A stretch of DNA of 62,413 nucleotides, filler included, from Asterionella formosa (taxonomy: Eukaryota), in NCBI GenBank assembly GCA_002256025.1. It is 12 parts of 12 records of this genome, joined end to end, with 100 filler letters (N's around TTAATTAATTAA, not from the genome) between each part and the next. Parts side by side here need not be neighbours in the genome. Positions count along the whole stretch, not along the records: positions 26,089 to 31,201 come from NKIB01013216.1; 11 more parts are not named here. One strand, written 5' to 3'. The notes beneath the pieces are model-generated. The model worked only from the letters and a program-made list of their open reading frames with translations. It was not told the origin of the DNA and ran no database searches. Both the position numbers and the translations under genes were made by a program. Positions 22,989-31,201 of this stretch are shown here, one piece after another. Within the stretch, counting starts at the first letter, position 1. Each line of letters starts with the position of its first letter.

Positions 22989-24304
22989 CTTGATGAATAG
23001 AGCCGCTCGCGTTACTCCAGCGGCAGCTGGATCCGCCTTGTTCAAGGCGGCTTCATCTACCCCTAGCACATTAACGGCGCTAAGAGCATCTAGTTCATTT
23101 ACACAAGCAGAACTCCCTGAAAAACTTTATTTCACGAAGGAAAAAGAAGTCCCAAAGGTACTTGGGGGACTTCAAATCGGTTTGCGAAAGCTCGTCGTGA
23201 TTACAGGAGCATCCTCCGGTCTCGGACTAAACTGTGCCTCCACTCTCGCTAAGACTGGTAATTATTTCGTTATCATGGCTGTTCGTGACGTTGAGAAGGG
23301 CAAGCAGGGTAAGAGCGACATTTTTGACAAGGACTAATTATTGCAGGAATTGAAGGAACAGGAGCTAACCATTCCCCTGTTTTTACCGTTTAACAGTCGC
23401 CAAGAAGATGGGTTTCCCAGATGGATCCTTTACCACCATGAAGCTTGAGCTTGGAAGTCTCCAGAGCGTGCGCGACTTTGTTGCGAACCTCAAGGCATTC
23501 AAGTCCGCTCGACCTCTGACTCATCTCATTTGCAACGCTGCTGTCTACAGACCCACAGACCCCAAACCAGCTTGGACTGACGACGGCTTCGAGATGAGCA
23601 TGGGCGTAAACCACTTTGGCCACTTCCTCCTCGTCAACCTTCTACTCGATGATATGAGTAAGGCCAAGGGAGCTCGTGTCTGCATTGTGGGATCTATCAC
23701 AGGAAACAGTAACACTGTCGGTGGAGGACTTGTCTACCCGCGTGCTGACTTGGGCAAGCTTCAGGGTTTCGAGAAAGGCGCCAAGAAGCCTGTCGAAATG
23801 GCAGATGGCAAGCCTTTTTTTGGCGCCAAGGCGTACAAGGACTCCAAGGTTTGTAACATGATGACTGTTTCCGAACTTCACAGACGTTACCACGAGAGCA
23901 CCGGAATCAACTTTGTCAGTATGTACCCAGGATGTATTGCCGAGACCGCCCTGTTCCGCGAGAAGAGACCATGGTTCCGTAAGGCGTTTCCATGGTTCAT
24001 GAAGTATGTTACTGGCGGGTACGTTGGGGAAGAAGAAGCTGGCCAGCGTCTTGCTCAGGTGATTGATGATCCGCTTTGCGACAAGTCCAACGTGTACTGG
24101 AGCTGGAACGGAGGCGCCCAAACAGTTGGACGATTTGATATTGACGGAAAGCCTAAGGGTGCTGGCGGATCTGGAGGAGAGATTTTCGAGAATACCCAGT
24201 CTGATGCTGTGCGAGACAAGGAGATGGCCGCCAGGATGTGGGATTTGAGTGTTGAGGCTGTCGGGCTCTCACCAAAGGAGATGTTCAAGGGCCGAAAACC
24301 GTGA
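22989..24304 (+). CDS. por: Light-dependent protochlorophyllide oxidoreductase; 5' end in gap, intron 23309-23396
   Basis: ITGASSGLG Rossmann motif, LICNAAVY, GVNHFGHFLL, IVGSITGNSNT, catalytic AYKDSK, MYPGCIAETALFRE, GGYVGEEEAGQRLAQV and YWSWN. Confidence 0.95.
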
Positions 24305-25411: not shown

Positions 25412-26263
25412 GGTTTGGCTTCGTTTTACACTAGTAAGGTGATGTTGGAACAAACTACTATATGGCACGGTGCCCGGTATTACAGCCAAGCAACAAACAA
25501 CAGCAGAATTGATTCTTTAAGTTATGTTCTTGTTGTAAGGCAAAGTCGGCCTGCTGCATCATCCGTACGTACTGTTTCATACAAAATGGAATTTAAACAA
25601 CCACACGCTGGAGTAAACACCAGGTAGACTTCACGGGCACAATTCATGTAGTACCAGGTACCTGGTATCAAACTGGCACCACCAGGTAGTATCCTTCGAG
25701 AATGGAATGAAGGCATATCATACGTAAATATATACTGAAATGGTTACCTCGTAATACCCCGACAAACGAGCACTGCACTTCTACAGTTCATACCAAATTT
25801 GGGGCATGGCTGGCTACTACTATAGGTTGCACATTCGTCGTGCTCGAAGTAGTCTACACAAAAATAACGGTGCTATAATCATAACACGCTTGGTCAATAT
25901 GTGTGTGTGATGGCGTACGTTGCTGGGAGTCCCATCAACGTTTTTGTACCGTTATTTCGGCTTGTCCCTTCGCTGACCATTTTCTTAGNNNNNNNNNNNN
26001 NNNNNNNNNNNNNNNNNNNNNNNNNNNNNNNNTTAATTAATTAANNNNNNNNNNNNNNNNNNNNNNNNNNNNNNNNNNNNNNNNNNNNTCGGCAGCTAAG
26101 ACAAGGGAAGACAAGAGCAACCACGCGAGGTTAAACAAGTGAATTAGTGCAAGGGTGAAGCACACAATTCTTTGAATAACGATTCAGAGAAGCAGTCTAA
26201 AGCATCGCCAAGCCTTTCGCAATTTATAGTCTAAAATCAATAAACAACATCTCTAGCAACAAC

Positions 26264-28363
26264 ATGATTCTCGCAAACGCCTGGAAGAACTATTTTACGG
26301 ATACTCTCGCCGCTCGAAACGATCTATTGACCGAGTTCCACCACTTTGCAACCTCGCTTGAGCACGCAACCACGCCAGAAACCCGTCAAACCCTCCTCAC
26401 TAACACCCTCTATAAATTCCATGCCATGATTGGCCCTCTCGACCATAAAGTCCATTTTTGCCACAATCTGAGCGTCCTCACAGGCAACAATTGGGGTAAA
26501 TCGGAGCCGGCCTACGTAGCTCTCCTTGGATTGGGATCCATCGCCCAACCAGTGGTTTTCGAAGCCAGACACGCTCTCGCAGCCATCACAACCACCATTC
26601 CCAACTACGACGCCTTACATGATCATGCCACCACTCCGGAACAACTCAGCACCTTGCACCTCACGGCGACTACCGTGATGAACACCAACATCAACCATCT
26701 TGTCCAAGTCCCGCCTTTCCTGTTTAATGTCCTCACCTCCAGTTCCACCGATGACCCAGCTGAACTCTTTTTCCTCGCTCGCCTTGCAGCCAAAACATTC
26801 GCGGAAAACCAGGCGAATCTTAGCACCACCCAAACCGACGACGAAAAGGCAGCGATCCGCAAACAAGTGTACGCATCTGCAGAGTATTTTTTGAGCTTCC
26901 TATACACCGCCAAGATGGTACCAAACCAAATCTCCCTTCCCATCTCTTATGCGACGACGCATGAAATAATGGATTGGAGTGCCACGCTACATCGCATGCA
27001 CATCAACTCGCCCAAGATTCGACAGACGGACGGCGCGCAGATCACACCCACAAAAACTGACATCAGAAACTCACGTGACGAAAGTATGGCGCAGGTAGCC
27101 GCAGCACTAGTGAGCGCTGCTTCGAACCTAGCTACAAACACAGACAGGTTAGTGGAAGCTAGGTCTTCTAACACTCCATCTTCTTCTAGGGCCTGGGAAA
27201 AAAACCCTAAATTCCTCCAAGATCAGATCCTTCGTTTAATGGCAGCTCATGATGACGACATCATTACGGAGCCCATTCAATCCCTTGCTACATTCCTCTC
27301 GCTCAGCTCGAATACATCCGCAGCACAGCAATTTATGGCAGAGTATCTACAATCCATTCTAAGCTGTCAAGATCTATGTTTAGATCCATTTACAACTCTG
27401 TGCATTAGCCAATTACAGTTTAACTACGACCCGACCGAGGGACCTTCGCGCATCAGCCTTTTCAAACTGCTATCGGAGTCGAATAACATGGTGTCCTCGT
27501 CAGATATAGAGATCATATCCAATGCCACCATTGATGCAGCAGGAGACAGCGACCGCTACAATCAGATCATGAAACGTTTGAGCGACAAGAAACTGTTGAT
27601 TGTTGCAAAGACGGTTGCAGATTTTGAAACAACCATTAAGAATATGATCGCAATTGTCCTTTTTGTTCTAGGAAATTGCTTCACCGCTGACTGATTGTGC
27701 ACGTGGCTAACCCATATCGAGGCAAATCGCGCCACCTATCGGCATTGCTCCGATCTCGATTTTCGCTTTTTCGCGCACCAACTTACAATCATGGACAACA
27801 TGATACAGGCGTTCTGGTGCAACTCAAAGTATGCAAGATCAGTCCAAGAAATGGATTTTCAGCTCCTCGATTTCTCGCAACAACAACGCCAGATCGCTGT
27901 CGGAAACCCCATGACCTCACCACTTCATCCACGGGTTGCCGCACTTTTTCTACATTCCAAACGTACTCGGGACGACCAATTCGACAAAACCAATCGCAGA
28001 CACCAGCAACAAGGAAACAGACATCAACAGCAGGAAAACAACCACCAACAAAACACAACAAAATTCATCCGAGGCAGAGCAGTCACCAACCCGCGAGCCG
28101 ACATCCTTTTTCGACTTCCGACAGGCATCTTCTATCGCGACGCTTTTCCGCCCTCAGTTCTGCGAAAGGCATCCAGAGTAAATGGGGCAACAAATTGTTG
28201 CCGTTGGCAGATATCAGGGATCTGCATAGACAACTGTGATAGAAAAGACGCACACGTTCAGTTAACAGGTGACAACAAAAAAGCATTTGCAACATTTTTC
28301 ACCGAGGCCATTCGTGATGTGACATCGACCACACCACGCAGTTTGAACACATCAACAAATTGA
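26264..28363 (+). pseudogene. Gag-like ORF1 with C-terminal Cys/His knuckle; one internal in-frame stop at 27692-27694
   Basis: ORFs 26264-27694 and 27695-28363 are in one frame separated by a single TGA. CCRWQISGICIDNCDRKDAH lies near the C-terminus. Confidence 0.7.
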
Positions 28364-31201
28364 CTAGGGCACACCCGGGTAGTCCCTGTAACGCATTCAG
28401 TAATGAGGCATTTAACAGTCTATCGCGGCTCATCGTCAATAGTAGCGCACAAGATCGAGACGACGACAATTCCAAAACTTACCATCACCAAGTCGGGAAA
28501 GATTCGTCCATCCGATATCTCAAAATTATTAACCACATCACGCACGAAGTTTTTCGCACGTATACGAGATCAGAATACGGAATCAGCACGTTGTATCAGG
28601 ATAACGGCCTTACCGCCACTACCGATATCGCCACTACCGCACCCACCACCGTACCTGGCACAACCCACACATCTGCTACACTCCGGCACGCGGATGCCAC
28701 AACCCAACAATGAAACTATCCTGGGTAAGTCAAGCTATCATACCGGTGGTAGCGATTCCGACTGTACAGATCACGACACAATACTAGCTACAGATGTTTG
28801 GGTACCAGACAGCACAGACACAAACTCGCCCGACCGCCACCACAACACTCCGCGGCAATTTGCACGAATAGCCCCACTCCCCGCCAGCCCCACCATCGAA
28901 CAACACACCTCACGCCATTCTTTGGAAAACGAGTTGCTCCGACACATCAATTGCATTCTAGATACCCCATCACCGCATATGAACACACCGACATTTCGTT
29001 TCGAATGGAGTACTGAGGCGGCAAACCACAACTGGGCGATCCTAGTACAGTTCAACCTAGACATTACCAAGGCAATTGCAAGCCAGGTCAACTCCCCGCT
29101 CAGTATAGGTTCGGAATTCCGAGCACTAAACCTACTGCGTCCTCTACTATCCTACCATCCGCTGTGGGGACGTTTCGTCACTCTCATCACGACTGGTGTA
29201 GAATTCCCGCTCAAACCTCTACCAGACGAGCAGAGGCTACACGACTTGGAGCTCGCCGTCGTCTCAGGCAACCACAGATTGGCGAAACTTAAACATGAAA
29301 TAGTTACGAAACTTCTAATCAAAGAAGTCGACAGAGGCTGGCAACTCCCACTCCCACCGGAAAATATCCGCCTACTACCACACGCTGTTGTAGCGCCGAT
29401 CGGTCTAGTGACGCAAGCCACAATCAACGCACACTGGGAAATAATAACCAAAGACCGGCTGACCCACGACCAATCATTCGAGTTCTCCCCAGGGACTTCC
29501 GTCAACGCACGTGTCATATTTGACTTGCTGACACCGTGTAGATACGGCACCGCACTGCGACGCTTTATTCACTACATAGTGGATCTAAGAAGAATCTATC
29601 CGGACACTCGAATTCTAATGACTAAATTAGATTTTAAAGCCGCGTATCGCCGCCTACATACATCGAGTCTCACAGCGTCACAGGCCATAGTCATTATCGA
29701 TGATATAGCGCTTCTCGCTTTACGGATGACTTTCGGGGGGGCACCAAACCCAAGCATGTGGAGCGATGTCTCTGAACTAGCATGCGACACGTGCAATTTG
29801 TTATCACGTTGCGACCGATGGAACTCGGAGTCCACGCCCACACTGGAATCCCCGCACCAACAAAAATACGTCACCATGCCAAAGTACCTCAACACTAGGT
29901 CAACTTGTGAACCAGCACAACCCACGACGGTAGCGATCGACGCTGATCTAGCACCGTTCACTGAATGTTATCTAGACGATCTATTTACGTGTTTCTTGGA
30001 TAATCCGACAGCTATATGGAAAGGTTCACGAATTACACTGCTTATGCTACATCTGTTGGGCAGACCTATAGCTGACTCTGAACCCCTACAACGTGAAGAT
30101 CTACTCGCGTTCGAAAAAATGACAGCAGAAGGCTCCCCAGAAGAATCCAAGATAATGTTAGGATGGGAGGTGAACACACGCACTCTTCGACTACGCCTCC
30201 CCCATGATAAACTCATGTCCTGGAATGCAGAAATTGACCGCATACTACAGTTGCCCATGGTTGATTGTGAAGTATTAGCGACCACGATCGGTCGACTGAA
30301 CCATGCCTCGTATGTGATCCCAACCGCTCGTGCCTTTCTATGCCATCTCCGACGTGCCGAACGGCGAGCAAGGGTCAGCGGAAAAAGAATTCCATTATCG
30401 GAATTACAAAAGGAAGAATTGCGGCAATGGCTCACCTTCTTACGTACCGCAAGCCAAGGAATCAGCCTAAACCGACTAACACTATGTGTTCCCACCATTC
30501 TCCTGTGTGCCAACGCCTGCCAACACGGAATCGGAGGGTTCTCGCTCACATCGGGCCGAGCCTGGCGATTCGAAATTCCAACAGGATGTCGGGGACATCT
30601 GTCGCTGAACCTACTGGAGTACCTTGCATCAATCACCACCATCGCAACTGAAGCCACAGTCGGTAACATTAGACCCGACGACTGCATTCTCTCCCAACTG
30701 GACAGCTCGACGGCGGATTATTGGCTTCACCGCGGTGGCGCACGGTTTCAAGGTCAAGAAAAATCGACCCATTTAGCAATCTCTCGCTGGCTCGCCGCAA
30801 TCCTCGAGCAAACCCAGGCGTGTAGCTACAGCCAATGGATCCCAGGAGATGACAACGTGATAGCCGATGCCCTCTCTCGTGACCATCATCTATCAAATGC
30901 ACAACTAACACACCTCATCCATCACTCGGCCACCCACCAGATGCCCCCGAATTTCTCCATCTCGCCGCTCCCCACCGACATCGCCTCCAAGCTTACCTTA
31001 TGGATGCAGATCGGGCGCGCTCCCAAGGACTTCAAGCTAACACCACAGCGAAGCTCAATCGCGTCTTCCGAATCTGGACCGAATTCCTTGCGTCCATTGG
31101 ATTTTGTGATGTCACCGATCCATTCCTCGCCAACCTCTCCCCAGAACAACGCATTCGACTCATCGGAGCGTTCGCGCATGCCGTCCGGCAGGCCGAGTTC
31201 A
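28364..31201 (+). CDS. Pol: reverse transcriptase + RNase H of a DIRS/Ngaro-like element
   Basis: RT motifs RLTHDQS, KLDFKAAYRRL, LRMTFGG.PNP, YLDD and LGWEVNT. RNase H motifs (D/N)AC.HGIGG, NLLEYLA, DSSTA and WIPGDDNVIADALSR. The frame is open from 28364; first ATG at 28403. Confidence 0.9.
31000..31201 (+). CDS. Probable start of the tyrosine recombinase ORF overlapping the pol 3' end (truncated)
   Basis: Alternate-frame ORF ..TTAKLNRVFRIWTEFLASIG...DPFL..LSPEQRIRLIGAFAHAVR. Position and composition match YR N-termini of such elements. The catalytic domain lies beyond the contig. Confidence 0.6.

What the first reader, a model, noticed from the sequence alone, without database searches (positions are those of the whole stretch)
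28351..28405. gag and pol of a tyrosine-recombinase retrotransposon are in frame, separated only by UGA-CUAG: candidate programmed stop-codon readthrough
Seen: gag (frame of 26264) stops at TGA 28361-28363. The same frame continues CTA GGG CAC ACC CGG GTA GTC CCT GTA ACG CAT TCA GTA ATG with no further stop into the RT-RNaseH ORF. The adjacent GACTA-GGGCACACCC-GGG-TAGTC / AGGG..CCCT can form a stem-loop. Established: UGA followed by CUAG/CUA is a known leaky-stop context (alphavirus nsP3/4; mammalian AQP4, MDH1, LDHB), often aided by 3' structure. Some retroviruses make Gag-Pol by readthrough, whereas DIRS-type elements are usually described with separate or overlapping ORFs. Inference: this lineage makes a Gag-Pol fusion by UGA readthrough, an expression strategy I do not recall being described for YR retroelements or for diatoms.
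Basis: partly seen in the sequence, partly recalled or inferred. Interest (0 to 1): 0.85.

Follow-up and report, generated by a model that had tools for sequence, protein, structure and literature searches.

The report
Leaky stop joins gag and pol
A diatom-type jumping gene that uses a tyrosine recombinase keeps its two main genes in one reading frame, split by a single conserved UGA stop in a known "leaky" context, so it most likely makes its fused Gag-Pol protein by ribosomes reading through that stop.

Summary
TGA 28361-28363 followed by CTAG is real, and the frame stays open into a pol gene. Structure models confirm the reverse-transcriptase fold and, in the downstream ORF, the tyrosine-recombinase fold.

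- The window is a chain of unrelated ~5.1-kb contigs. Only 26089-31201 belongs to the element.
- This copy has an earlier in-frame TGA at 27692. It is CGA or CGT in sister copies, so it is a private CpG mutation.
- ATG 28403 is ACG in sister copies.

The junction TGA itself is not private. TGA-CTAGGGCA is invariant in five lineages down to about 55% pol identity. Across the family, 30 junctions (26 clusters) have gag and pol in frame, split by one stop: TGA in 25 clusters, TAG in one, never TAA. Among 23 representatives, CTA or CGG follows the stop in 12. It follows 0 of 30 ordinary stops in the same loci.

Paired stems that keep pairing through compensatory changes lie 7-11 nt downstream. One sister clade uses a conserved G_GAU_UUU -1 shift site instead, and another has gag and pol fused.

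Best reading: programmed UGA readthrough, inferred and not measured. This is a new variant of a known mechanism. My literature searches found no report of it for tyrosine-recombinase retroelements.

The parts
26089..31201 (+). One 5113-bp contig lying wholly inside a ~6.5-kb gag / RT-RNaseH / tyrosine-recombinase retroelement. It is bounded on both sides by N44-TTAATTAATTAA-N44 spacers.
   Evidence: Spacers. It is 98% identical over its full length to L002 and L001. L001, L003 and L005 are circularly permuted relative to it, with a unit of about 6520 nt.
26264..28363 (+). gag-like ORF (named by position only; no family hit), broken in this copy by a private stop.
   Evidence: The intact 719-codon equivalent is in L001 and L002. 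No Pfam or NCBIfam family matched.
27692..27694 (+). Private nonsense codon, TGA here where other copies have an Arg codon.
   Evidence: It is CGA in L001, L002 and L015 and CGT in L004. T>C at 27692 in RNA runs X15 and X17 and DNA run X13.
28361..28363 (+). gag terminator UGA, the proposed readthrough codon.
   Evidence: Conserved in L001, L002, L015, L004, L008 and in L006, L007, L010. No difference is listed here in 4 runs whose contigs bridge it.
28364..28374 (+). Conserved 3' context CTAGGGCA plus the rest of an 11-nt spacer.
   Evidence: TGACTAGGGCA is invariant in 5 lineages. Yet CTA makes up only 0.05-0.30 of Leu codons and GGG only 0.04-0.21 of Gly codons in these elements.
28375..28382 (+). 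5' arm (CCGGGTAG) of the conserved stem.
   Evidence: 8 pairs, 97.9% of cells paired, 2 pairs changed on both sides, 1 pair on one side.
28420..28428 (+). 3' arm (CTATCGCGG, G28425 bulged) of the conserved stem.
   Evidence: In L004 a synonymous CGG>CGA change in the 5' arm is matched by an Arg>Cys change in the 3' arm (with the translations).
28403..28405 (+). ATG private to this copy. It is not a conserved pol start.
   Evidence: ACG in L001, L002 and L015. T>C at 28404 in all 4 runs. In L001 and L002 the first in-frame ATG lies 110 codons after the stop.
28364..31201 (+). pol ORF, in frame with gag and cut off by the spacer. It is 1009 codons long in L002.
28961..31063 (+). RT-RNaseH core, equivalent to L002:4118-6220, the stretch that was modelled.
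   Evidence: Model mean pLDDT 94.9. Best fold matches are MMLV, XMRV, foamy-virus, Ty3 and CaMV reverse transcriptases, E 1e-8 to 9e-11. This copy differs at nearly invariant residues R301, G358 and D717.
30883..31201 (+). Start of the tyrosine-recombinase ORF. It is in the -1 frame relative to pol, overlaps the pol 3' end, and is cut off by the spacer.
   Evidence: The full 424-codon ORF is in L003. Its model matches Cre, Xer, Tn1549 integrase and Flp. Conserved R, K, HxxR, W and Y are seen in the alignment.

Best explanation
The element is a member of a large family of gag / RT-RNaseH / tyrosine-recombinase retroelements that Pfam does not detect. Named hits are diatoms. The family is common in freshwater, estuarine and marine metagenomes.

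In intact copies, one genomic RNA carries gag (about 700 codons) and pol (about 1000 codons) in the same frame, separated only by UGA. Most ribosomes stop there and make Gag. A fraction decode UGA with a near-cognate tRNA and continue, making Gag-Pol.

In the window's subfamily the signal would be UGA-CUAGGG (the type II UGA-CUA context) plus a stem that starts 11 nt after the stop. Another clade uses UGA, a 7-nt spacer and a 10-bp hairpin.

Shown here: conservation of the stop, the phase, the context and the pairings; the RT and recombinase folds; and the stop's presence in contigs from RNA libraries.

Inferred: that ribosomes actually read through, and at what rate.

The window's own copy is dead. 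It has a private nonsense codon in gag and changes at invariant pol residues.
For: (1) TGA-CTAGGGCA and the in-frame phase are kept in L001/L002/L015 (98% nt identity), L004/L008 (77%) and L006, L007, L010 (55-57% pol identity), while the flanks diverge. Synonymous sites between these lineages are near saturation (pS 0.65-0.83 in gag).

(2) Family-wide, 23 of 80 loci have gag and pol in frame with nothing but one stop between them. Seven more such junctions lie at the far ends of permuted contigs. That gives 30 junctions in 26 clusters: TGA in 25, TAG in 1, TAA in 0.

(3) Among 23 representatives, the stop is TGA in 22, against 17 of 30 ordinary long-ORF stops in the same loci (Fisher p = 0.0015). 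The next base is C in 15 of 23, against 9 of 30 (p = 0.014). CTA or CGG follows in 12 of 23, against 0 of 30. These are the type II readthrough contexts described in PMC3159437 (passages read).

(4) The first in-frame ATG of pol lies 36-327 codons after the stop, or is absent before the contig end, yet the frame is open right back to the gag stop.

(5) Stems sit at the expected distance. In the window subgroup: 8 pairs, 97.9% paired, 2 compensatory pairs. In the hairpin subgroup: 10 pairs, 98.9% paired, 4 compensatory pairs, covariation score reached by 0 of 500 shuffles.

(6) Other clades of the same family solve the same problem by other routes to a fusion protein. In 9 of 9 loci classed as -1 overlap in the tree, a G_GAU_UUU site lies in phase inside the gag/pol overlap. 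GGAUUUU is the tested slippery site of pea enation mosaic virus RNA2 (PMC4737148, passages read). L011 and L012 have one fused ORF of 1781 and 1836 codons, and fused proteins exist in the database (P0121, a cluster of 128 members).

(7) On the pol tree, the in-frame-stop type sits in three large clades on both sides of the midpoint root.

(8) Contigs from three RNA libraries bridge the junction with TGA present and no joint.
Against: - No measurement of readthrough, no junction peptide and no ribosome profiling is available.
- Contigs from RNA libraries can contain DNA and drop rare spliced forms (caveats).
- dN/dS over the first 110 codons after the stop is only 0.33-0.78. The coding signal there is weak, and the argument rests on the frame staying open.
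- The window-subgroup stem is supported by only 6 sequences from 5 lineages. Its arms also encode conserved residues (R-V, Y-R), so protein constraint is partly confounded with pairing.
- In the Candida element Tca2, an in-frame UGA with a predicted pseudoknot did not direct readthrough in a yeast reporter, and a cryptic junction promoter was found (PMC2194720, abstract).
- The junctions are not all independent. Several clusters are close relatives.
- Eleven of the 23 representatives lack CTA or CGG after the stop.
Confidence: 0.8

Rival explanations
1. Pol is made separately from Gag, and the shared frame is incidental. The route would be a spliced or internally promoted pol RNA, or internal initiation downstream of the stop. 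The conserved CTAG would then be, for example, a splice acceptor or part of a promoter.
For: Tca2 has a cryptic promoter in its gag-pol junction, and its UGA context failed a reporter test (PMC2194720, abstract). CTAG|G resembles an acceptor, which is my own reading of the sequence. Contigs cannot exclude minor RNA forms.
Against: This model needs neither a shared frame nor an open frame back to the stop. Yet 30 junctions have exactly that, with the first ATG 36-327 codons downstream. No joints appear in the contigs of 3 RNA libraries. Sister clades have a phased G_GAU_UUU shift site or a fused ORF, and both yield fusion proteins.
Confidence: 0.1
2. Termination at UGA is followed by reinitiation on the same RNA at a downstream start codon.
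For: Only the adjacency of the two ORFs.
Against: The first ATG lies 36-327 codons downstream in relatives. No shared frame would be needed. There is no overlapping stop-start motif at the junction.
Confidence: 0.03
3. UGA is a regular sense or selenocysteine codon here, through a variant genetic code or Sec insertion.
For: A single in-frame UGA is the classic look of a Sec codon.
Against: TGA ends 17 of 30 other long ORFs in the same loci, including the recombinase ORF of L003. No other TGA occurs in about 1700 codons of gag plus pol. One lineage uses TAG at the same place (L069). No SECIS-type family reached E <= 1 in 8 loci scanned against Rfam.
Confidence: 0.02
4. The TGA at 28361 is a copy-specific mutation in a decaying pseudogene, like the one at 27692.
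For: This copy does carry private CpG transitions. Of 85 private differences, 32 are CpG transitions, and they include the nonsense codon at 27692.
Against: The TGA at 28361 is present in every relative examined at this position and in 4 of 4 runs laid.
Confidence: 0.01

Closest known systems
Type II readthrough signals: UGA-CUA or UGA-CGG plus an extended 3' stem-loop (alphavirus nsP3/nsP4; tobra-, peclu-, furo- and pomovirus replicases; coltivirus VP9). PMC3159437, passages read.
   Same: The stop is UGA. CUA or CGG follows directly in 12 of 23 junction representatives. A stem starts 7-12 nt after the stop, with a long loop that is itself partly structured, and is supported by compensatory changes.
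   Different: The host RNA is a retroelement of algae, not an RNA virus. The product is Gag-Pol, not a replicase. The stem here is shorter (8 pairs against 10-12 or more). In the window subgroup six bases (CUAGGG) plus CA are invariant. Nothing has been measured.
Gammaretrovirus (MuLV) Gag-Pol readthrough: UAG-G, an 8-nt spacer and a pseudoknot (type III), as summarised in PMC3159437 and in the search listing of PMC4178896.
   Same: gag and pol share a frame, are split by one stop, and yield a Gag-Pol fusion. The hairpin subgroup has a 7-nt spacer and a structured element, and one member (L069) uses TAG-GGA.
   Different: The stop is UGA in 25 of 26 clusters. A pseudoknot was not tested. No protease or DDE integrase family was detected by Pfam or NCBIfam, though these libraries also miss this family's RT. 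Integration would be by a tyrosine recombinase.
Tca2 (pCal) Ty1/copia retrotransposon of Candida albicans. PMC2194720, abstract read.
   Same: A retrotransposon with in-frame gag-UGA-pol and a predicted 3' structure.
   Different: In Tca2 the flanking sequence did not direct readthrough in a yeast reporter. Here the context matches validated leaky motifs and is conserved across deep lineages, but it is untested.
Tyrosine-recombinase retrotransposons (DIRS order: DIRS1-like, PAT, Ngaro, VIPER). PMC3266345 (passages); Cafeteria Ngaros in PMC8547959 (passages).
   Same: A gag-like ORF, RT-RNaseH and a tyrosine recombinase. The gene order gag, pol, YR and the lack of a methyltransferase hit are as described for Ngaro and VIPER. 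Direct repeats lie between YR and gag, and contigs assemble as circles.
   Different: Its RT, RNaseH and YR match no Pfam model above threshold, whereas the Cafeteria Ngaros are reported with PF00078, PF17919 and PF00589. YR always overlaps the pol 3' end in the -1 frame, whereas PMC3266345 states that Ngaro and Viper do not usually harbour ORF overlaps. The passages I read describe no gag/pol readthrough for the order.
Pea enation mosaic virus RNA2 -1 frameshift site G_GAU_UUU. PMC4737148, passages read.
   Same: The identical heptamer, in the same phase, lies in the gag/pol overlap of 9 of 9 loci classed as -1 overlap in the tree, in the sister clade.
   Different: This concerns the sister clade, not the window's element. 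No downstream stimulator was analysed.

Membership tests
Tyrosine-recombinase retrotransposons (DIRS order) | Encodes a reverse transcriptase | tested here: met
   Sequence libraries are blind to it: no Pfam, NCBIfam or PDB-profile hit. The model of L002:4118-6220 (pLDDT 94.9) matches MMLV, XMRV, foamy-virus, Ty3 and CaMV RTs at E 1e-8 to 9e-11 and probability 1.00. A YLDD motif is visible; reading it as RT motif C is from recall.
Tyrosine-recombinase retrotransposons (DIRS order) | RNase H domain after the RT | tested here: inconclusive
   Invariant D518, E553, D581 and D636 in 83 sequences fit a DEDD site, a motif I recall. The fold search was not run on this domain alone.
Tyrosine-recombinase retrotransposons (DIRS order) | Encodes a tyrosine recombinase rather than a DDE integrase | tested here: met
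   Pfam Phage_integrase scores only E = 9.8e-4, below its cut-off. The model of the L003 ORF (pLDDT 76.8) matches Cre at E 7e-8, and also Xer, Tn1549 integrase, an integron integrase and Flp. R203, K254, H-S-x-R-S (341-344) and W366 are invariant and Y374 nearly invariant in 16 sequences. Their catalytic roles are recalled.
Tyrosine-recombinase retrotransposons (DIRS order) | Terminal repeats of DIRS type (inverted plus internal complementary region) or split direct repeats | tested here: inconclusive
   Contigs L001, L007 and L023 close on themselves. L026 has an 879-nt perfect direct repeat between YR and gag, and L037 has several direct repeats. No inverted repeats were found in 5 loci. True element ends were not defined.
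Ngaro group | Gene order gag, RT-RNaseH, YR with no methyltransferase domain | tested here: met
   Order seen in L002 and L003. No methyltransferase family hit. This is weak evidence, because these libraries also miss the RT.
Ngaro group | RT and YR group with Ngaro reference sequences in a tree | not tested
   No reference Ngaro, DIRS1, PAT or VIPER sequences were available from the tools used.
Programmed stop-codon readthrough (type II-like) | Two ORFs in one frame split by a single stop, conserved among diverged relatives | tested here: met
   30 junctions in 26 clusters. They occur on both sides of the midpoint root of the pol tree.
Programmed stop-codon readthrough (type II-like) | UGA followed by CUA or CGG | tested here: met
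   The window has UGA-CUA. In the family, 12 of 23 junction representatives have CTA or CGG after the stop, against 0 of 30 control stops.
Programmed stop-codon readthrough (type II-like) | 3' RNA structure at a short spacer, supported by covariation | tested here: met
   Window subgroup: 11-nt spacer, 8 pairs, 2 compensatory pairs, covariation score reached by 6 of 500 shuffles. Hairpin subgroup: 7-nt spacer, 10 pairs, 4 compensatory pairs, reached by 0 of 500. The sample is small (6 and 9 sequences).
Programmed stop-codon readthrough (type II-like) | A measurable fraction of ribosomes pass the stop | not testable with these tools
   This needs a reporter assay, ribosome profiling or proteomics.

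The most novel reading that the evidence does not exclude
This would be the first programmed stop-codon readthrough described for tyrosine-recombinase retroelements, and for diatoms. It sits in a family where at least four ways of making Gag-Pol replace one another on one tree: UGA-CUA/CGG with an extended stem; UGA with a spacer and a hairpin; a G_GAU_UUU -1 frameshift; and plain fusion. These are signal types known from RNA viruses of plants and animals, a plant virus and retroviruses. That would make the family a natural experiment in how recoding signals evolve and are exchanged.
Probability: 0.55. Interest if true: 0.7.

Novelty: new variant of a known kind. Interest (0 to 1): 0.6.

Why it matters
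Readthrough as a way to set the Gag to Gag-Pol ratio is textbook for gammaretroviruses. It is rare and poorly documented in retrotransposons. My literature searches found no report of it for retroelements that integrate with a tyrosine recombinase.

If confirmed, it would:
- extend a viral recoding signal (UGA-CUA/CGG plus a 3' stem) to algal mobile elements;
- give diatom biology a first natural readthrough cassette, useful as a tool and as a probe of termination in these organisms;
- offer a single family in which readthrough, -1 frameshifting and fusion can be compared on one tree.

It also flags an abundant retroelement family whose RT and recombinase are invisible to Pfam and NCBIfam and so are probably under-annotated in algal genomes.

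Tried and rejected
Not conserved and not more stable than shuffles. Rejected in favour of the 28375-28382 / 28420-28428 stem.
- **Genomic context.** No whole genome is held, and there is no second copy or terminal repeat in the window. Neighbouring genes belong to other contigs, so context was dropped.
- **Sequence-based family searches of gag, pol and YR.** Pfam, NCBIfam and PDB gave nothing above threshold.
- **dN/dS after the stop.** Only weakly below 1, so it is not used as main evidence.
- **Viral-contig scans.** The motif scan gave one chance match, L081, with only 3 open codons before and 8 after it. The protein scan found no relative.
- **Rfam.** No known RNA family at any junction in 8 loci. 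The only hits were a terminal palindrome in L044.
- **Fused L012 against L013.** Alignment across the junction was too poor to say which codon replaced the stop.
- **Earlier notes of this scan.** Nothing on this genome, and nothing on readthrough in such elements.
- **Papers.** Goodwin & Poulter 2004 and Poulter & Butler 2015 are not held, so I could not check whether they mention an in-frame stop. Paper supplements were not consulted.


Full report
**What is in the window**

TGA sits at 28361-28363, followed by CTA GGG CAC ACC CGG GTA GTC CCT GTA ACG CAT TCA GTA ATG. The frame then stays open for 961 codons.

Three things were missed.

- The window is not one stretch of genome. Every ~5.2 kb there is a spacer of 44 N, TTAATTAATTAA and 44 N. 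The pieces between spacers shrink steadily in size. It is therefore a chain of unplaced contigs. The element occupies exactly one of them, 26089-31201, and the neighbouring genes are unrelated. No whole genome is held, and the window has no second copy.
- The frame of 26264 has an earlier in-frame TGA at 27692-27694.
- The contig stops inside the element, so the recombinase gene is represented only by its first ~100 codons (30883-31201).

**What the element is**

Pfam, NCBIfam and PDB sequence searches find nothing above threshold for gag, pol or the third ORF. Relatives are nevertheless abundant.

- 153 proteins scored E <= 0.001 among 8000 candidates. The named ones come from the diatom Fragilaria crotonensis, and in a second search from Fragilariopsis cylindrus.
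- 212 of 345 candidate stretches in metagenome contigs encode a relative. The best 80 were kept as loci.

L001 and L002 are 98% identical to the window contig. L001, L003 and L005 are circularly permuted relative to it, which gives a unit of about 6520 nt. L002 and L003 show the full plan:

- gag-like ORF, 719 codons;
- pol, 1009 codons, in the same frame;
- a 424-codon ORF that overlaps the pol end in the -1 frame.

A model of the pol core (83-sequence alignment, pLDDT 94.9) matches retroviral, Ty3 and caulimovirus reverse transcriptases at E 1e-8 to 9e-11. A model of the third ORF (pLDDT 76.8) matches Cre, Xer, Tn1549 integrase and Flp. Its R, K, HxxR, W and Y positions are conserved in 16 sequences.

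**Is the stop real or a private mutation?**

The two TGAs behave in opposite ways.

- TGA 27692 is CGA in L001, L002 and L015 and CGT in L004. It reads C in two RNA runs and one DNA run.
- ATG 28403 is ACG in the sisters and in all four runs.

Both are C>T changes at CpG. Of 85 differences private to the window copy, 32 are CpG transitions. The copy also differs at nearly invariant pol residues. This copy is dead.

By contrast, TGA 28361 with CTAGGGCA is present in L001, L002, L015, L004 and L008 and in L006, L007 and L010, which share only 55-57% of pol residues with the query. No difference at 28361-28363 is listed in four runs whose contigs bridge the site. That table shows only the best-supported 40 of 132 differences.

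**Family-wide pattern**

Of the 80 loci:

| Class | Loci |
|---|---|
| gag and pol in frame, nothing but one stop between | 23 |
| pol in the -1 frame, overlapping gag | 13 (some are artefacts of permuted or decayed contigs) |
| pol in the -1 frame, with a gap | 4 |
| pol in the +1 frame | 6 |
| in frame, with a gap holding further stops | 5 |
| pol ORF runs off the 5' end of the contig | 18 |
| no upstream ORF of 100 codons nearby | 11 |

Seven permuted contigs carry a further junction at their far end. All seven have TGA and are open to the contig end. The 30 in-frame junctions fall into 26 clusters at 88% nucleotide identity: 25 TGA, 1 TAG and no TAA.

For counts I took one locus per cluster and dropped L014, L056 and L078, whose upstream ORFs are short. 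That leaves 23 representatives:

| Feature | Junction stops | Other long-ORF stops, same loci | Fisher p |
|---|---|---|---|
| Stop is TGA | 22 of 23 | 17 of 30 | 0.0015 |
| Next base is C | 15 of 23 | 9 of 30 | 0.014 |
| Next triplet is CTA or CGG | 7 + 5 = 12 of 23 | 0 of 30 | not computed |

With the three dropped loci included, the figures are 25 TGA of 26 and C in 15 of 26. UGA-CUA and UGA-CGG are the consensus of type II readthrough sites (PMC3159437, passages read).

The first in-frame ATG of pol lies 36-327 codons beyond the stop. An independently started pol would therefore leave the long open stretch unexplained.

**RNA structure**

What is conserved in the window subgroup is pairing of CCGGGUAG (28375-28382) with CUAUCGCGG (28420-28428), 11 nt after the stop. 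It has 8 pairs, 97.9% of cells paired, two pairs changed on both sides and one on one side. Pairing collapses to 25-52% when the partner is slid by 1-3 columns. In L004 a silent CGG>CGA change in the 5' arm is matched by an Arg>Cys change in the 3' arm, which points to selection on pairing rather than on protein.

CTA GGG is invariant even though these codons make up only 5-30% and 4-21% of Leu and Gly codons in these elements.

A different clade (L020, L023, L024, L027, L030, L031, L032, L057, L069) has a 10-bp hairpin 7 nt after the stop. Its loop is mostly GCCUAGCGGYG. Four pairs are compensatory, 98.9% of cells are paired, and the covariation score is reached by 0 of 500 shuffles.

The samples are small, and the tool's own caveats about related sequences apply.

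**Other solutions in the same family**

A pol tree of 47 rows puts the in-frame-stop type in three large clades on both sides of the midpoint root. All rows classed as -1 overlap fall in one clade (support 99) that also holds four gap-type rows.

In 9 of 9 of those -1 loci the heptamer GGATTTT lies inside the overlap. It is phased as G_GAU_UUU in the gag frame, 3-33 nt before the gag stop. Three more members of that clade, with a gap before pol, have it 3 nt before the gag stop. This is the tested slippery site of pea enation mosaic virus RNA2 (PMC4737148, passages).

L011 and L012, nested among readthrough lineages, have one fused ORF of 1781 and 1836 codons. Fused proteins also exist in the database: a cluster of 128 members, one of 10, and a Fragilariopsis gene model.

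Three routes to the same fusion protein in one family argue that Gag-Pol is the product under selection.

**Expression**

The element is held by 20 of the 24 public runs listed, six of them RNA libraries. Contigs of three RNA libraries run across the junction, with TGA present and no joints. This fits an unspliced gag-UGA-pol RNA. It does not prove one, because such libraries can contain DNA and contigs lose rare forms.

**Caveats**

- Nothing here measures readthrough.
- dN/dS just after the stop is only 0.33-0.78.
- Junction clusters are not fully independent.
- The Tca2 element of Candida, which also has gag-UGA-pol and a predicted pseudoknot, failed to show readthrough in a yeast reporter and revealed a cryptic promoter (PMC2194720, abstract).

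**Novelty**

The following searches of the held library found no report of readthrough in these elements:

- 'tyrosine recombinase' + retrotransposon + readthrough;
- DIRS + diatom;
- Ngaro + 'stop codon' + gag;
- DIRS1 + 'stop codon' / read-through;
- DIRS + 'in-frame stop';
- diatom + Ngaro;
- diatom + 'stop codon readthrough'.

The DIRS1-like overview contains no occurrence of 'stop codon' or 'readthrough' (PMC3266345, term search). The large frameshifting review does not mention DIRS or tyrosine recombinase in the first 300,000 of its 449,034 characters (PMC5009743, term search).

The two key Ngaro/DIRS papers are not held, so prior mention cannot be excluded. That is a different mechanism in a different lineage, and I did not test it.

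**Verdict**

This is a known mechanism in a new class of element and host, with unusually rich comparative support but no experiment.

Noticed in passing
window 5121-57319 (11 spacers): The window is a pseudo-molecule. Pieces of about 5.1 kb, in slowly decreasing size, are joined by N44-TTAATTAATTAA-N44 six-frame-stop spacers. Adjacent 'genes' such as the adh_short ORF at 23408-24304 therefore give no context for one another.
   Followed up: yes
L018, L019, L022, L026, L037, L038, L039, L044, L060 (gag/pol overlaps); also L017, L042, L049: A sister clade has pol in the -1 frame. The heptamer G_GAU_UUU lies in phase in every overlap, 3-33 nt before the gag stop. It is the same slippery site as in pea enation mosaic virus RNA2, so this is a likely programmed -1 frameshift. 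L017, L042 and L049 keep the site but have a 420-530 nt gap before pol, which is unexplained.
   Followed up: partly
L011 3-5348, L012 328-5838; proteins P0121, P0122, P0123: One lineage nested among readthrough lineages has gag and pol fused in a single ORF of about 1800 codons with no stop. One of its protein clusters has 128 members.
   Followed up: partly
L020, L023, L024, L027, L030, L031, L032, L057, L069 (first ~45 nt after the gag stop): A 10-bp hairpin lies 7 nt after the stop, with a loop that is mostly GCCUAGCGGYG and a conserved CCA...AAACC tract behind it. Whether the loop pairs downstream to form a pseudoknot was not tested.
   Followed up: partly
window 30883-31201; L002 6040-6550; 21 of 22 loci that show both ORFs: The recombinase ORF always lies in the -1 frame relative to pol and overlaps its 3' end by roughly 200-690 nt. 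How it is translated is open. A second recoding event or a separate RNA are both possible.
   Followed up: no
L002 3521-6547, L003 2120-3391: The RT-RNaseH and recombinase of this abundant family match no Pfam model above its cut-off and give no NCBIfam or PDB sequence hit, although their predicted folds are clear. The family is probably under-annotated in algal genomes.
   Followed up: yes
L026 2540-4315; L037 6-284 and 6109-7340; L001, L007, L023 ends: An 879-nt perfect direct repeat lies between the recombinase gene and gag in L026, and several direct repeats occur in L037. Several contigs close on themselves. This fits split direct repeats or circular or tandem forms. True element ends were not defined.
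   Followed up: partly
window 26089-31201: This copy has 85 private differences from L001 and L002, which have 16 and 10. Thirty-two of the 85 are CpG transitions, as expected of a methylated, decaying copy. The RNaseH Asp717 is Asn here.
   Followed up: yes
window 26089-26259: In the runs laid, word depth is about three to four times higher here than in the body of the element in X15, and about twice in X13. Many contigs break off with differing continuations near 26235-26239. This suggests a repeat or a boundary shared among subfamilies just upstream of gag.
   Followed up: no
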